Source of the DNA: Ruditapes philippinarum
Taxonomy: Eukaryota
Direction: 5' to 3'
NCBI RefSeq assembly: GCF_026571515.1
Contig: NW_026852468.1
Span: forward strand, 434,001 to 498,000
DNA length: 64,000 bases
Shown here one piece after another: positions 21,001 through 37,140 of this stretch. Made by a program: the position numbers. How positions within the stretch are numbered: position 1 is the first letter of the stretch; every line of letters begins with the position of its first letter.

Positions 21001-24000
21001 ATATTTACTATTGTATGAACTCTGGGAGTGCGAGATCCCTCGATAGTAATGGCAACAAAAACAATAGCTGGAAATAACAGACTGGGTTTTATTGAGTCTG
21101 TTCATAAGAGATAATGTTAAATGCAACATCTTTCACACCATCTACCACCGACTTAAGCATTATTCCATCTTCAACACTTCGTTACTCGACAAGTATTGGA
21201 ATCAACGATCCCGAATGATAAGAAAAATATAAAATCACTTAAATGGAGAATTGTGCAATTTTTTATTTTCTAATAATTCCACATGCAACAAATTTATTAT
21301 AATCTATACATAACTTTTTTTAAAGTTACTTAGATATCATAACGTCTACATAGTCCAACAAGACAGATATCGTTATTTTTCTTCAATTATTATGTTATAA
21401 TTAATATCAGGTACATGTATAACATCTTATTGCTGCCTAAGACTTCATGTCATCTTTCCATCCAGATACCATTTGGCTGAACGACGTGTGGTCAGCTTTA
21501 ATTTGACTGAAATAATAATATAAATAATAATAATAATAATAATAATTCTTAACAAATGTTTCTGACAATTTACATTTATTAATACATTGCAAAACTTAAA
21601 AATAACCACCATGATTGTAAGAACATAAAAATAGACAGTAACGTATGAGAAATTGAACGAAACAGTAATTAAAACTAGTCCCTTATGGTAAGTTATTCAT
21701 TTTTGGAAAGAGTAAATGCTCTGTACATGCAATAGAAATTGATAAATACAATTGAATTAAATGGTGTTTAAGACAAGTGAAAATGACTATTCAAATCTTA
21801 AGTCAGTCAGCTCTTTTGTGCGGCCTTGCAATGCTCTATGCTACTAGTAACTCAATTTTATCATTTTGATATTTTAACATTTATCCTGATAGCGGTAAAT
21901 GATTCTACCCATGCAACCAGTGCAGGCCAAGATCAGCTGACATGCCCGTGCCTTCTTTCAATGTTCTGCACATTTTGCTATACAGCCGGTAAATATTTTG
22001 AAAATTTCCCTGAAAGTCGTGAATGGTTGAAATGATCTGTCCCGATTGAAAGATCGACACGTCCATTTAAAATAATCAACGGGGTAGAGTTAATCTGCTA
22101 TAAGACTCCCCGTAATAAACTGTTTTAAAGCAGGACATGTACGTTTCGAAATTCAGATAGGAATTTAAATAATTCTAAATGCTCACAATACCTGTTGTCA
22201 AACGAAGACGGGAATTTGTCCAGAATGCTCATGAGCTTTTTAAGCGCTGCCATGGTTTCACTAAGATTTCCTGAAATGATGAAAATGATAAAACTAAGAA
22301 GAGATCATGAGTTTCATATTGACAGATATTACATATAGCACATGTAAAATTATGACAAACGTGCATAAATATAAATGTTAAAAACGCACGTACCAATTTC
22401 ATTTGGTTTAGTTGTCGAGGTCTCTTTTCGAGCGGACCCTGCAATACAAATAAAAATTTAGACATAAAATTGCTGTAACAAAATGGGAGATAGTATTTAT
22501 AAGTAATATATCATACTAAACATGTATGTATTGATACAAACACTGTTCCTAATCAAAACCAAGAATCCGAAAGAGTCAACAGTCTGATTTAGCTTCGCAT
22601 ATTTTTAAATGAAAACAATAAATTATTTAGCACTATATGTCCTACAATCCTGGACGTATATAAAATGCCACAAACTTTCAAAGTAATGATTATCAAAGTA
22701 TTTGTTGAAATCTCACTTACCTGGCCAGCTGCCATCCCAGTTGATATGTTGGCTTTGTTGATTTGTAGAACCTGTGGTGTTTGAAATAGCTAGACCTTCT
22801 TTGTTATCCGTGTTACTGATACCACTTTCTATAAAAGATAAATTAAATTTTTCCTACATTATACAAAACTTATGATCATGAGAGAAATTGCAAAATGTAG
22901 CATCTCTCATGCCCCGGTTTCCTTATATCGGGGATCTGTATAACACATTCCTCTAATATCTAATATAATGATTAGATAGGAAAGGACAAAAATAGAACCC
23001 ACTTCTTAACATCTTAAGTTACCAATACGTAATAATCTAAACACATTGTGTATTGAGTTTATATAATGGGACGACATTTCTATTACAGGTCTTAAAAACA
23101 ATCTTAATCATTATCCTTTCATTTATATATATTACGAATTAGATTTCAAACTTTGCTTCAATGTGTATATAATTAAAATATTACTAACTTGGCCATTTTT
23201 CTGACCAATCGCCGGACCAATCTCCACCAACAGAAGTTTTACCTTCAAACGAAAATGTCAAAAATAAACTTAGCGCACAAAAAATGCAACATTATATCAG
23301 GAATTGACTGCACTTTTACATCAAGTCACAATGCTCAAAATATGCTTTCTTTTTTTCTCTACAAAACGATGTTTACATTTGTAACTCGCTAAATAATTTG
23401 AATTTTGTTGTGTCCTGTCATGACTGATTTTCGTAAACAGAAACATTTATATTTATTTTAGGCGCTCGCTGCTGGCGGTTACCGATTATACAAATGCGAC
23501 CATTGCAGACCAAAATCAGCTGGCACATTTGGACCGTCTGATCATAGTCTGCACTGTCTGCCATTCAATCCGCCCATGTTTTTTTCCCTTGAAAAGAAGG
23601 ACAAGAACAAGATATCTAGCATGGAAAACATTAGTTAACGTTTGATCTTAAGTGTAGGTATGAAGCGATTACGATGTAAACTGTTAACATTCGCTTGAAT
23701 TATACACAATACTTTAATATTATTGTAAATATCTACGATGTTCCGTGATTGCCCACGACTAAAAATGAAAAATGAAGTATATCAGATTAAACTGTAGCTG
23801 TAAATTAAATGTGTGTTAAACTAGTTATTATCTCAAACTTGATATTTTTACTATCAGTTTGACATACCTGGCCATTCGCCCTTCCAATTATTTGTATTAA
23901 CACCTGCTTTAGCTGATATGTAATTGGTTGTTTCAACGTTAGAATAACCTTTGAGATGATTTTCATCTTTCTCCACTTTAGGCTCACTTCCACTGCTATC

Positions 24001-36000: not shown

Positions 36001-37140
36001 CGAGAATTTGCATATCAAGTTTTAGATAGGTATAATATTAAATAAGAAACGAAAAGACATACGTCGAAACGCCATTTGATCGTTATTTTAAACCAGTCAC
36101 TTTGGACGGTTAAAACAATTGTTGTAATTAAAATAAATAAAACAAACCAAAGAAAAAAGAATCTTACTTGCATGTTTAAAATGATGATAAGTTGGATATT
36201 GTGCCATTGCCGATATTATATGGAGAAGAACAAGGCCAATGGCAGCCATGATGGAGGGCATATATCTGTAAGGCAATCAGATAATAGTTCAACTTTTAAA
36301 CTGACCTCACATATCCTGCTATTTCCTGATAATATTCCAAGTAAATAATGGATACTTAATGGAAAAAAAAAAGAAATAACAAACAAAAAACTTTAACCTT
36401 TGCTCAAAGTATGATTTTCCGATTGTGTTGTTGTTTTCAGTATGTTACAACTGTTGGAATAATATAAACAAACGCTTTGTTTGATATAGTTGTAATAACA
36501 TCAAAGTGAATGGCCGTAGAGTAGCCTTATCTTTCTTCATTTCCTCAGAGATAACTTGATTTAGGTCAAAAGTCAAACGATATTTTGTCATAAAATCGGA
36601 CTTATAAAATATTACAAAACTAAAAGTAATACTCATTTTGATAAGGTATAGCTATCAAGTTGATTTCATTCAAAATCATGACTTTTATCTACAGTACATA
36701 TTTAAGTGTTCTATAACACCGTATCTAACTTTCGCATGAGTTATTGTATATATTTATTCATCATCAGCTTATCACTTTTGTCGTTTTCATTATCATCATC
36801 TTTCTCATTATTATTTTCATTGTCATCCTCAGTAACATAGAAAACACCATTGCTTTATCGTCGGATGTGATAAATATATGCGACCGTATATTAGTGTATT
36901 TTCAGTAGTGATTATGGGAGAAACATACATGTATAAACAACAACAACAACAACAACAATGAATGTTCAAAATAAGAAACATGTTAAAAATTTAGCATGTT
37001 ATAGCGCCGAAATGTGATTTATTTTTCCAAAAGAAAATGCATGTCGGAAAATACATACATGTACACCATATTGAGTCAAAAAGGTTAAAACTGTTATTTA
37101 AAGTGCTAGCACAGTTATTTTAACATGGATACAGCACTGG

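What the first reader, a model, noticed from the sequence alone, without database searches (positions are those of the whole stretch)
21437..36261. Pair of undescribed secreted low-complexity proteins sharing FDPN and PLDPxG motifs: a candidate structural-biomaterial gene cluster
Seen: two same-strand neighbouring genes, both with signal peptides, mostly phase-1 small exons, basic sites near the N-terminus (RGKRESR; RQRR) and shared short motifs. Gene A has YNPLDPTGF and RFDPNN; gene B has SPLDPLGAM, LMDPMGFMGG, and many FDPN/FNPN. I recognise no domain in either. Known: molluscan shell, ligament and adhesive proteins are typically lineage-specific, secreted, repetitive low-complexity proteins in tandem clusters. 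Inference: diverged paralogues of an unnamed matrix protein family, flanked by three Ca-binding or adhesion genes (TSP1 array, CRTAC1-like, cadherin). This is my best candidate for a novel system in the window.
Basis: partly seen in the sequence, partly recalled or inferred. Interest (0 to 1): 0.75.

Follow-up and report, generated by a model that had tools for sequence, protein, structure and literature searches.

The report
Two conserved secreted disordered-protein genes
Two neighbouring genes encode secreted, largely unstructured proteins with no named family but with relatives in other genomes; they are real and conserved, and their suggested role as a structural material is plausible but untested.

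Summary
On the minus strand lie two separate genes. Each has an ATG plus signal-peptide exon, symmetric phase-1 exons, a basic convertase-type site (RGKR; RQRR) and the quoted motifs. No Pfam or PDB match was found.

New here: both genes have unnamed ORF-type homologues in other genomes. Gene A's 240-aa exon has 11 and gene B's exon 2 has 8.

The stretch just after gene B's RR site (FGNFDPN.FNSQ.G) is invariant in 9 of 9 sequences. FDPN and PLDPxG fit one pattern, hydrophobic-[D/N]-P-x-x-hydrophobic. It occurs 7 times in gene B against 0.10 expected (0/5000 shuffles) and twice in gene A (126/5000).

Outside two small exons A and B show no homology (hhalign probability 0.1%). Paralogy is therefore weak; shared cassette exons fit better. 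Both exons modelled are predicted disordered (pLDDT 46 and 53).

My reading: convertase-processed, uncharged Gly/Ser/Asn-rich sticker-and-spacer matrix or gel proteins. Tissue, 3' ends, taxon and function are unproven. Not abductin.

The parts
25604..25673 (-). Gene A exon 1: ATG and signal-peptide-like sequence (MWNRPFIVLAVLFLKCLAVQSFR), phase-1 donor G|GTAAGA
   Evidence: signal peptide judged by reading only
25218..25313 (-). Gene A exon 2 (31 codons plus split codons): KR of the RGKR site, then ...LYNPLDPTGFIFE
   Evidence: local match to gene B exons B8 and B9 (5/5000 and 23/5000 shuffles)
24798..24875 (-). Gene A exon 3: ...TPRFDPNNYAYKYA
   Evidence: local match to gene B exon B4 (4/5000)
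23868..24590 (-). Gene A exon 4 (240 aa). Conserved blocks: NSPNY, [YF]SG.PGMLG.G, QYLP..LRN.[ST]E (N-glycosylation sequon), NW.GEWP. 7 sequons. Predicted disordered.
22721..22828 (-). Gene A exon 5: ...INWDGSWP, a short repeat of the exon-4 end; strong donor CAG|GTAAGT. The gene's 3' end beyond this exon is unresolved.
   Evidence: weak tblastn matches of A4 homologues' C-termini (E 0.009-0.03)
36168..36261 (-). Gene B exon 1: ATG and signal-peptide-like sequence (MPSIMAAIGLVLLHIISAMA|QYPTYHHFKHA)
35315..35611 (-). Gene B exon 2 (98 aa): pro-region, RQRR site, then DGMFGNFDPNKFNSQIGANFNPNAF... and a third FNPNTF
34900..35049 (-). GC-rich patch encoding GQMFNNPNQW... in a frame that does not join B2 in phase 1; possibly a decayed or mis-assembled exon
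34392..34600 (-). Ambiguous stretch with motif-like pieces in two frames (MDPNKV; RGPKYDPNASGFTGP at 34439-34392). Exon boundaries unresolved.
33930..34319 (-). Gene B Ser/Gly/Thr-rich exon ending ...TPNFDPIKTNSMATSGFNPLNPMM. The acceptor is uncertain: 34319, 34244, or continuous from 34439. Contains a 30-nt 2.1-copy repeat at 34161-34222.
33003..33086 (-). Gene B small exon GSNAGNFNPGQMNAQLGKQGMSMNMFG
32362..32703 (-). Gene B exon (113 aa): Gly/Ser-rich, with STFDPNAM and NMFNPNAMMGG
   Evidence: hit by B2 homologues (E down to 1.1e-11)
32086..32196 (-). Gene B exon SSNPMMPGSSGGTNPMMPGGSM...
31781..31837 (-). Gene B small exon ...SSSPLDPLGAMS
   Evidence: start coordinate corrected after by reading
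31432..31491 (-). Gene B small exon GAQKFSGGSSLMDPMGFMG with donor GAG|GTAATT
31312..31431 (-). Unresolved 3' end of gene B. Either (a) read-through to a stop at 31316 with a hydrophobic 19-mer (KD 2.53), or (b) a 100-nt CT-rich intron plus a mini terminal exon 31331-31312. AATAAA at 31320. A third candidate exon lies at 30841-30770.
26272..27317 (+). Frameshifted Tc1/mariner-type transposase remnant between the two genes (GC peak 0.60); not part of either gene
   Evidence: HTH_Tnp_Tc3_2, E 2.3e-14

Best explanation
These are two separate, real, evolutionarily conserved genes for secreted, intrinsically disordered proteins.

Gene B (36261 to about 31316, minus strand) encodes a pro-protein with three parts:
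- A signal peptide.
- A pro-region of about 65 residues ending in a conserved Arg-Arg site (RQRR), of the kind cut by furin-type convertases.
- A chain of more than 400 residues that is almost uncharged and rich in Gly, Ser, Asn and Thr.

In that chain a six-residue element recurs: hydrophobic-[Asp/Asn]-Pro-x-x-hydrophobic (FDPNKF, FNPNAF, MFNPNAM, MDPMGF). I infer that each element is an Asx-Pro type I turn that brings two hydrophobic side chains together. These turns would act as 'stickers' and the Gly/Ser stretches as 'spacers'. Many weak sticker contacts would let the protein condense into a hydrated extracellular gel, coat or elastic matrix. The near-invariant 20 residues exposed by convertase cleavage would act as a specific docking or nucleation end.

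Gene A (25673 to at least 22721) encodes a different conserved, N-glycosylated disordered protein. It carries one copy of each motif variant in two small cassette exons. A 240-aa exon follows with its own conserved linear motifs (PGMLG.G, QYLP..LRN.[ST]E, NW.GEWP).

Shown: the gene structures as splice-consensus models, the conservation, the motif enrichment, the absence of known domains, and the low model confidence.

Inferred: secretion, cleavage, turn structure, self-association, and any material role.
For: Gene structure: ATG plus hydrophobic leader exons, and AG/GT-bounded exons all in phase 1.

Gene A conservation:
- The A4 exon has 8 credible hits of 10 in the full HMMER search (P0008 and P0009 dropped as repeat-driven). 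The profile search added 3 more.
- Similarity begins at the predicted acceptor. All 11 of 11 homologues contain W.G.WPG, matching the window's predicted donor after WP.
- The sequon N-x-[ST] in LRN.[ST] is kept in 12 of 12 sequences.

Gene B conservation:
- B2 has 8 hits among 39 candidates.
- F47-N53, F55-Q58 and G60 are invariant in 9 of 9 sequences. RR-DG is kept in the 3 of 3 sequences that cover it.
- A near-identical ORF (P0014) has 0 differences in the 54 exonic residues. By my reading of the two sequences, all 3 of its differences lie beyond the predicted donor.
- In the genome that seems to hold both P0013 and P0020, B2 keeps 71% identity over 52 aa while A4 keeps 30% over 191 aa.

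Linkage: P0013 (A-like) and P0020 (B-like) both list a longest contig of 624,398.

Composition of the mature gene B exons: G 21.9, S 21.6, N 9.4, T 7.7, A 7.7, P 6.2, M 6.2, F 4.6 %; D+E 2.1 %, K+R 3.3 %.

Motif enrichment: 7 observed against 0.10 expected, 0/5000 shuffles.

Disorder: AlphaFold2 mean pLDDT 45.7 (A4) and 53.2 (B2), pTM 0.12 and 0.15.

Turn structure: NPNA units populate type I beta-turns stabilised by the first Asn (PMC5715787, passages read).
Against: - No transcript, tissue or proteome evidence of any kind was available.
- The taxon was not determined by any tool.
- The alignments behind the structure predictions are shallow (9 rows), so low pLDDT is weak proof of disorder.
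- The strongly conserved N-terminal peptide of mature gene B fits a specific ligand or docking role at least as well as a bulk material role.
- A possible C-terminal hydrophobic segment (KD 2.53) would tether gene B to the cell surface rather than release it.
- Gene B has almost no Tyr, Lys or Cys, the residues usually used for covalent cross-linking in protein materials.
- Several gene B exon boundaries (34240-35050, and the 3' end) are unresolved.
Confidence: 0.4

Rival explanations
1. Gene B is a cell-surface-tethered, heavily glycosylated mucin-like coat protein (membrane-spanning or GPI-anchored), not a released material. The disordered Ser/Thr/Gly chain would form a glycocalyx brush.
For: - If the donor at 31432 is not used, the frame stays open for 38 more codons to a stop at 31316. 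It encodes ...GGNLRKIRIQ-YILCASLALLLLTCCAASIL-EFCVRSADD, whose best 19-mer has Kyte-Doolittle hydropathy 2.53.
- That segment has GC 0.39 against 0.26-0.27 in the flanks, and AATAAA lies at the stop.
- Stop-free runs of 58 or more codons make up 1.4% of 414 runs in nearby non-coding sequence.
- Ser+Thr make up 29% of the mature exons.
Against: - The hydrophobic stretch is a CT-rich tract that also reads hydrophobic in a second frame.
- It ends in a good acceptor (GCGTCAG) 100 nt after a strong donor, so it may simply be the polypyrimidine tract of a short intron before a mini terminal exon.
- The basic residues lie on the wrong side for a type I anchor, and a 9-residue polar tail is atypical for a GPI signal (established rules, recalled).
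- No C-terminal homologue data are available.
Confidence: 0.2
2. One or both genes encode signalling pro-proteins. The conserved peptide exposed by convertase cleavage (DGMFGNFDPNKFNSQIG... in B; the short piece before RGKR in A) would be a ligand, and the low-complexity remainder a spacer or carrier.
For: - Both have a signal peptide followed by a basic site.
- The residues directly after RR are the most conserved part of gene B (invariant in 9 of 9).
- In gene A a Gly precedes KR (..SFR-G-KR), the arrangement that gives a C-terminal amide in peptide precursors (established knowledge, recalled).
Against: - No second cleavage site bounds the conserved peptide in gene B. Only one RR occurs in the exons read, and there are no repeated peptide copies flanked by basic pairs.
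- The gene is long, with many cassette exons.
- The gene A candidate peptide would be only about 4-5 residues long, and its conservation could not be checked because small exons are not in the protein sets.
Confidence: 0.15
3. A and B are unrelated genes that merely sit side by side. The shared motifs would be convergence or chance, or the result of shuffling one or two cassette exons, not descent from one ancestral gene.
For: - hhalign of the A4 family against the B2 family gives probability 0.12%, with 1 aligned column.
- None of the 16 pairs of A4 or A5 with gene B exons beats 1% of shuffles.
- The compositions differ: A has G 7.3% and S 13.3% with all residue classes present; B has G 21.9% and S 21.6%.
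- The six-residue motif in gene A is only 2 observed against 0.24 expected (126/5000).
Against: - A2-B8 (5/5000) and A3-B4 (4/5000) stay near significance after correction for 32 pairs (about 0.03).
- Both genes share the same exon phase, the same order of signal exon then basic site, and the same strand. They appear linked in a second genome.
Confidence: 0.45
4. The models are artefacts: pseudogenes, or open frames created by low-complexity DNA.
For: - Antisense open frames mirror the Gly/Ser exons (32346-32837 and 33929-34390 on the plus strand).
- One motif-bearing patch (34900-35049) is out of phase, and 34392-34600 has motif pieces in two frames.
Against: - Non-repetitive parts are conserved at 25-94% identity in 11 (A4) and 8 (B2) independent ORFs, with conserved exon ends.
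- In P0014 the differences fall only beyond the donor.
Confidence: 0.05

Closest known systems
Abductin (scallop hinge-ligament elastomer)
   Same: Secreted, with a signal peptide. Disordered and Gly-rich, with Met and Phe as the recurring hydrophobic residues. Very few charged residues. (Abductin features from PMC9999432, passages read.)
   Different: Abductin is 136 aa and built of tandem GGFGGMGGGX decapeptides, with 58 mol% Gly and 1 mol% Pro. Gene B has 456 residues in the 8 exons counted, 21.9% Gly, 21.6% Ser and 6.2% Pro. It has no decapeptide array, and it has [DN]-P turn motifs and a pro-region that abductin lacks.
Methionine-rich insoluble shell and ligament proteins of Pinctada fucata (LMP, NU-5 and others)
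   Same: Secreted low-complexity framework proteins with Met-rich regions and no homologues by BLAST (PMC7591529, passages read; PMC13080008, passages read).
   Different: Their sequences are in supplementary figures that I could not open, so no comparison was made. Gene B has only 6.2% Met. The LMP repeat I recall from memory (not from any call) is unlike the motifs here.
NPNA repeats of Plasmodium circumsporozoite protein (structural analogy only)
   Same: The same Asn-Pro-Asn-Ala unit occurs here (FNPNAF, MFNPNAM). In CSP it is in equilibrium between disorder and a type I beta-turn (PMC5715787).
   Different: CSP has dozens of contiguous NANP units and no flanking hydrophobic residues. Here single units are flanked by Phe or Met and separated by Gly/Ser spacers of roughly 7-35 residues. 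No homology is implied.
Cohesive FG-type low-complexity domains (nucleoporins) and sticker-spacer elastomers such as elastin and resilin (mechanistic analogy, recalled)
   Same: Uncharged polar spacers with regularly spaced aromatic or hydrophobic stickers. Elastin also has symmetric cassette exons that split a Gly codon (recalled, not checked in a call).
   Different: Those families are intracellular (FG) or have other repeat chemistries (VPGVG; YGAP). No sequence relationship was found (Pfam).

Membership tests
Abductin | Tandem decapeptide GGFGGMGGGX making up most of the mature protein | tested here: not met
   Tandem Repeats Finder found only one coding repeat in the region (30 nt, 2.1 copies). 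The exon translations show no such decapeptide.
Abductin | About 58 mol% Gly, about 1 mol% Pro, mature length about 116 aa (PMC9999432) | tested here: not met
   Gly 21.9%, Pro 6.2%; 456 residues in the 8 gene B exons counted.
Abductin | Located in the inner hinge ligament | not testable with these tools
   No expression or proteome data were available.
Neuropeptide / prohormone precursor | Signal peptide plus several basic cleavage sites bounding one or more short conserved peptides | tested here: inconclusive
   One site per gene (RGKR in A, RQRR in B). The conserved peptide after RR in B has no downstream basic site in the exons read.
Proteoglycan core protein (serglycin / syndecan type) | Ser-Gly-x-Gly glycosaminoglycan attachment sites, usually near acidic residues (recalled consensus) | tested here: not met
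   0 of 28 Ser-Gly dipeptides in gene B exons are in SGxG context; D+E is 2.1%.
Mucin-like glycoprotein | Long Pro/Thr/Ser-rich tandem-repeat domain | tested here: inconclusive
   Ser+Thr 29% and Pro 6.2%, but no long tandem array. O-glycosylation is not testable.
Membrane- or GPI-anchored surface protein | C-terminal hydrophobic segment encoded in the last exon | tested here: inconclusive
   A hydrophobic 19-mer (KD 2.53) exists only if the 31432 donor is skipped. It coincides with a CT-rich tract before an acceptor.
Mollusc shell / ligament matrix proteins with repetitive low-complexity domains (a class, not a homologous family) | Signal peptide plus a low-complexity domain | tested here: met
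   Gene B. Gene A meets it only in part: it has a signal peptide, but its composition is not low-complexity.
Mollusc shell / ligament matrix proteins with repetitive low-complexity domains (a class, not a homologous family) | Detected in the matrix proteome, or expressed in mantle or other secretory epithelium | not testable with these tools
   No such data. The organism itself was not identified by any search.
Any Pfam family / any solved structure | Significant profile match | tested here: not met
   0 families for 4 exons at E<=0.1. PDB profile searches gave 0 hits for the A4 family. The B2 family had one chance-level hit (RecA construct, E 0.33).

The most novel reading that the evidence does not exclude
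The two genes form a conserved, linked pair encoding a previously undescribed type of extracellular sticker-and-spacer protein. In this reading the sticker is a hydrophobic-Asx-Pro-x-x-hydrophobic beta-turn clip. Convertase cleavage unmasks an invariant N-terminal docking peptide that triggers assembly. The result would be a new protein elastomer or gel chemistry, for example in a ligament, periostracum, mucus or egg coat, distinct from abductin, elastin and resilin.
Probability: 0.2. Interest if true: 0.6.

Novelty: new member of a known kind. Interest (0 to 1): 0.35.

Why it matters
If the material reading is right, the pair would add a new, simple sequence grammar to the known protein elastomers and gels: an Asx-Pro turn flanked by Phe or Met, set in uncharged Gly/Ser spacers. 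It would also be an example where proteolytic unmasking of a conserved end controls assembly. That is directly testable with recombinant protein.

If it is not right, the result is still useful annotation. Two 'orphan-looking' low-complexity genes turn out to be conserved families with defined linear motifs, a conserved N-glycosylation site and probably conserved linkage. This cautions against calling such genes lineage-specific from one genome.

Tried and rejected
- Pfam on four exons: no family.
- PDB profile searches: nothing for A4; one chance-level hit for B2.
- B2 against longer proteins (173-2000 aa): none of 2784 candidates scored. No full-length annotated relative was found. The tool itself calls this weak evidence.
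- Profile search with the A4 family in the 110-555 aa range: 7 hits, all unnamed or 'hypothetical protein'. Proteins longer than 555 aa were not searched for gene A.
- hhalign of the A4 family against the B2 family: no similarity.
- The listing of cluster members: database switched off. Sources, accessions and organisms of the hits stayed unknown.
- Literature search for six motif strings (FGNFDPN, MFNPNAM, NGEWPG, PGMLGIG, PGMLGVG, FDPNKF), matched anywhere in the text: 0 papers. Two topical searches gave nothing specific. This covers only the held library. Sequences in figures and supplements are not searchable.
- Abductin membership: rejected on repeat, composition and size.
- Proteoglycan idea: rejected on 0 SGxG sites.
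- Idea that the GC-rich patches at 21880-22089 and 23410-23619 are copies of one repeat element: blastn within the window found only self-hits. Pfam found nothing.
- AlphaFold2 of A4 and B2: low confidence, so no fold search was run.
- Complex prediction was not run. I do not claim that A and B bind.
No related loci, and therefore no direct synteny, could be fetched.
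Full report
**Scope and method.** I worked exon by exon. All gene models below are therefore chains of individually read exons inferred from open frames and AG/GT consensus. No transcript data were available. The window has two N runs (42616-42976 and 43080-43243). 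They lie outside the finding and were left alone.

**The observation.** The window is AT-rich, with GC about 0.28-0.41 per 2 kb. The region's open frames with Gly/Ser/Asn-rich or motif-bearing translations are all on the minus strand.

**Gene A.** It starts at the ATG at 25673.
- Exon A1 reads MWNRPFIVLAVLFLKCLAVQSFR and ends at G|GTAAGA.
- A2 (25313-25218) reads KRESRQDANLLQVLSDNGLYNPLDPTGFIFE.
- A3 (24875-24798) reads NNKQYTGNGIDTPRFDPNNYAYKYA.
- A4 (24590-23868) is a 240-aa exon.
- A5 (22828-22721) ends INWDGSWP before a CAG|GTAAGT donor, echoing the NWKGEWP end of A4.

**Gene B.**
- B1 reads MPSIMAAIGLVLLHIISAMAQYPTYHHFKHA.
- B2 (35611-35315) holds a pro-region, RQRR, and then DGMFGNFDPNKFNSQIGANFNPNAF...NFNPNTF.
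- Further exons at 34319-33930, 33086-33003, 32703-32362, 32196-32086, 31837-31781 (SPLDPLGAMS) and 31491-31432 (LMDPMGFMG) are bounded by AG and GT.
- All 12 internal exons listed have lengths divisible by three, with phase 1 at both ends.

**What could not be settled.**
- The stretch 34392-34600 has motif-like pieces in two frames.
- A patch at 34900-35049 encodes GQMFNNPNQW in a frame that cannot join B2 in phase 1.
- The acceptor of the 33930 exon is uncertain.
- Both 3' ends are open.
The phase-1 alternative ends at 21445.
- A1 is not an internal exon of gene B. The only AG just upstream gives a stop in phase 1 (my reading).

**Between the genes.** There is a frameshifted Tc1/mariner-type transposase remnant at 26272-27317 on the plus strand (HTH_Tnp_Tc3_2, E 2.3e-14). 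There are also two plus-strand open frames of unknown nature at 28365-29238.

**Are the motifs more than chance?** FDPN/FNPN and PLDPxG fit one pattern with the same spacing: hydrophobic-[D/N]-P-x-x-hydrophobic. Compare F-DPNK-F and L-DPTG-F.
- Shuffling each exon 5000 times, gene B has 7 such hexamers against 0.10 expected (0/5000).
- Gene B has 12 hydrophobic-[DN]-P triplets against 0.57 expected (0/5000).
- Gene A has 2 hexamers against 0.24 expected (126/5000) and 4 triplets against 0.91 expected (46/5000).
- In six-frame translation of the whole window, the looser pattern [FYM][DN]P[NI] occurs 11 times on the minus strand, 10 of them between 24831 and 35462. It occurs once on the plus strand.
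- The motif is therefore a true repeat of gene B and only suggestive in gene A.

**Are the genes real?** Yes for the parts that could be tested.
- A full HMMER search of 1.84 billion representatives with exon A4 gave 10 proteins at E<=0.001. I dropped two long repeat proteins (P0008, P0009; E about 2e-4) as repeat-driven matches.
- The other eight run from 94% identity (P0001, E 1.6e-132) down to about 25-45%. A profile search added three more (P0011-P0013).
- All are short ORF-type predictions from jgi, ena or lgn records. Their only name is 'hypothetical protein'.
- Similarity begins where I place the acceptor. All 11 of 11 homologues contain W.G.WPG, matching the window's predicted donor after WP.
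- The conserved blocks are NSPNY, [YF]SG.PGMLG.G (two or three copies), QYLP..LRN.[ST]E and NW.GEWP, with 18 invariant columns in 9 sequences.
- The Asn of LRN.[ST] keeps a glycosylation sequon in 12 of 12 sequences. A4 itself has 7 sequons.

**Exon B2 homologues.** B2 found nothing among longer proteins but found 8 proteins of 56-148 aa.
- In the 9-row alignment, F47-N53, F55-Q58 and G60 (FGNFDPN.FNSQ.G) are invariant. The RR-DG junction is kept in all three sequences that reach it.
- P0014 is identical over the 54 exonic residues. By my reading of the two sequences, its three differences all fall beyond my donor.
- The B2 homologues also hit the 32703-32362 exon (E down to 1.1e-11) and, more weakly, four other gene B exons. 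This shows internal repetition.

**Linkage.** P0013 (A-like) and P0020 (B-like) both report a longest contig of 624,398 bases. I take this as probable conserved linkage. I could not fetch the contig. P0018 and P0019, two B-like ORFs, share another contig length.

**Are A and B paralogues?** Only weakly supported.
- hhalign of the A4 family against the B2 family gave probability 0.12%.
- In 32 exon-by-exon Smith-Waterman comparisons with shuffles, the only outliers involve the two small exons of gene A: A2-B8 (NPLDPTG / SPLDPLG, 5/5000), A2-B9 (23/5000), A3-B4 (TGNGIDTPRFDP / TSGGSGTPNFDP, 4/5000) and A3-B3s (50/5000). After correction for 32 tests the best two are near 0.03.
- The compositions differ. 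Gene B's mature exons are G 21.9, S 21.6, N 9.4, T 7.7, A 7.7, P 6.2, M 6.2, F 4.6 %, with D+E 2.1 and K+R 3.3 %. Gene A uses all residue classes (S 13.3, N 10.6, G 7.3 %).
- Shared or shuffled phase-1 cassette exons explain the data at least as well as whole-gene duplication.

**Structure.** AlphaFold2 with the 9-row alignments gave mean pLDDT 45.7 and pTM 0.12 for A4, with no secondary structure. For B2 it gave 53.2 and 0.15, with one low-confidence helix at residues 52-61. With such shallow alignments this is only moderate evidence of disorder, but it agrees with the composition. No fold search was run on these models.

**Mechanism proposed.** Shown: leader exons, basic sites, motif repeats, conservation, and the lack of a fold or domain. 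Inferred: the rest.
- Both proteins would enter the secretory pathway.
- A convertase would cut after RGKR (A) and RQRR (B).
- In gene B this would expose an invariant N-terminal peptide, followed by an uncharged Gly/Ser/Asn/Thr chain.
- In that chain each hydrophobic-[D/N]-P-x-x-hydrophobic unit would form an Asx-Pro type I turn. NPNA units do this in solution and in crystals (PMC5715787, passages read). The turn would bring two Phe or Met side chains together as a weak 'sticker'.
- Multivalent stickers on flexible spacers would give a hydrated gel, coat or elastic matrix.
- Gene A, with its conserved linear motifs and glycan site, would be a separate secreted component.
- I put this at about 0.4.

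**Points against the material reading.** They are real.
- The most conserved part of gene B is a specific peptide rather than bulk repeat.
- Tyr, Lys and Cys, the usual cross-linking residues, are nearly absent.
- Gene B may carry a C-terminal hydrophobic segment if the 31432 donor is skipped (KD 2.53; GC 0.39 against 0.26-0.27 in the flanks; AATAAA at 31320). That same stretch is CT-rich, reads hydrophobic in two frames, and ends in an acceptor 100 nt after the donor. It may therefore be an intron's pyrimidine tract before a mini terminal exon.

**Comparison with known families.**
- Abductin is the nearest named material protein by composition (Gly, Met, Phe, few charges, signal peptide). Its defining features are a GGFGGMGGGX tandem array, 58% Gly, 1% Pro and 136 aa (PMC9999432, passages read). 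None of these is met.
- The methionine-rich insoluble shell and ligament proteins of Pinctada (PMC7591529 and PMC13080008, passages read) belong to the same general class. Their sequences sit in supplementary figures that were closed, so no comparison was possible.
- A proteoglycan core is unlikely: 0 SGxG among 28 Ser-Gly dipeptides.
- Mucin-like, neuropeptide-precursor and anchored-surface-protein readings remain open as rivals.
- No paper in the held library contains any of six motif strings.

**Context.**
- The TSP_1 repeats at 2032-8830 (plus strand) and a gene with UnbV_ASPIC plus FG-GAP domains at 12119-19262 (minus strand) are confirmed. I take the latter as CRTAC1-like from recall. 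It has a LINE insertion carrying endonuclease and reverse transcriptase.
- The cadherin gene rests on three sub-threshold Pfam matches.
- None of this bears on function.

**Verdict.** These are two real, conserved, probably linked genes for secreted disordered proteins of unnamed families. Gene B has a well-defined turn-type repeat and a conserved post-cleavage end. They are a new member of a known broad kind (secreted low-complexity proteins), not a demonstrated new system. Interest 0.35.

Noticed in passing
window 15580-18510 (+): A LINE-type retroelement sits inside the minus-strand gene that carries UnbV_ASPIC and FG-GAP domains. Its long open frames carry Exo_endo_phos (E 4.8e-06) and RVT_1 (E 8.5e-15 and 5.1e-13). 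The reading frame is broken into three overlapping ORFs.
   Followed up: partly
window 26272-27317 (+): A Tc1/mariner-type transposase remnant lies between the two genes, spread over three frames (HTH_Tnp_Tc3_2, E 2.3e-14). It coincides with the highest GC in the region (0.60).
   Followed up: partly
window 28365-29238 (+): Two adjoining plus-strand open frames (102 and 194 aa) lie between genes A and B. They have only sub-threshold Pfam hits (DUF7130 E 0.019; RNA_pol_Rpb1_4 E 0.049). Nature unknown: gene or mobile element.
   Followed up: partly
window 34900-35049 (-): A GC-rich patch encodes GQMFNNPNQWCPGG..., a motif-like piece with one extra Asn. Its frame cannot be joined to exon B2 in phase 1. 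It may be a decayed exon, an assembly indel or an alternative exon.
   Followed up: partly
window 32346-32837 (+) and 33929-34390 (+): Long antisense open frames (163 and 153 aa, Pro/Leu/Glu/Asp-rich) mirror the Gly/Ser-rich exons of gene B. They are a by-product of the codon composition, not separate genes.
   Followed up: no
window 21880-22089 and 23410-23619: Two GC-rich patches (0.48) lie in the 3' part of gene A, with open frames on both strands. They have no Pfam hit and no nucleotide similarity to each other or to the rest of the window. Unexplained.
   Followed up: partly
window 44310-44693 (+): This open frame contains MKVIILCALLCWEISAASQ..., a signal-peptide-like start. It may be the first exon of the downstream cadherin-like gene. 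No Pfam family was found.
   Followed up: no
window 42616-42976 and 43080-43243: Two runs of N sit among short TA/CA-rich repeats.
   Followed up: no
hits P0018 and P0019: Two distinct gene-B-like ORFs report the same longest contig (2,740,393 bases). This suggests a tandem duplicate or a repeated exon in another genome.
   Followed up: no
window 21511-21546 and 33501-33560: AAT/ATA microsatellites lie in introns or 3' regions. They create the poly-Ile/poly-Tyr open frames seen in the ORF list.
   Followed up: no
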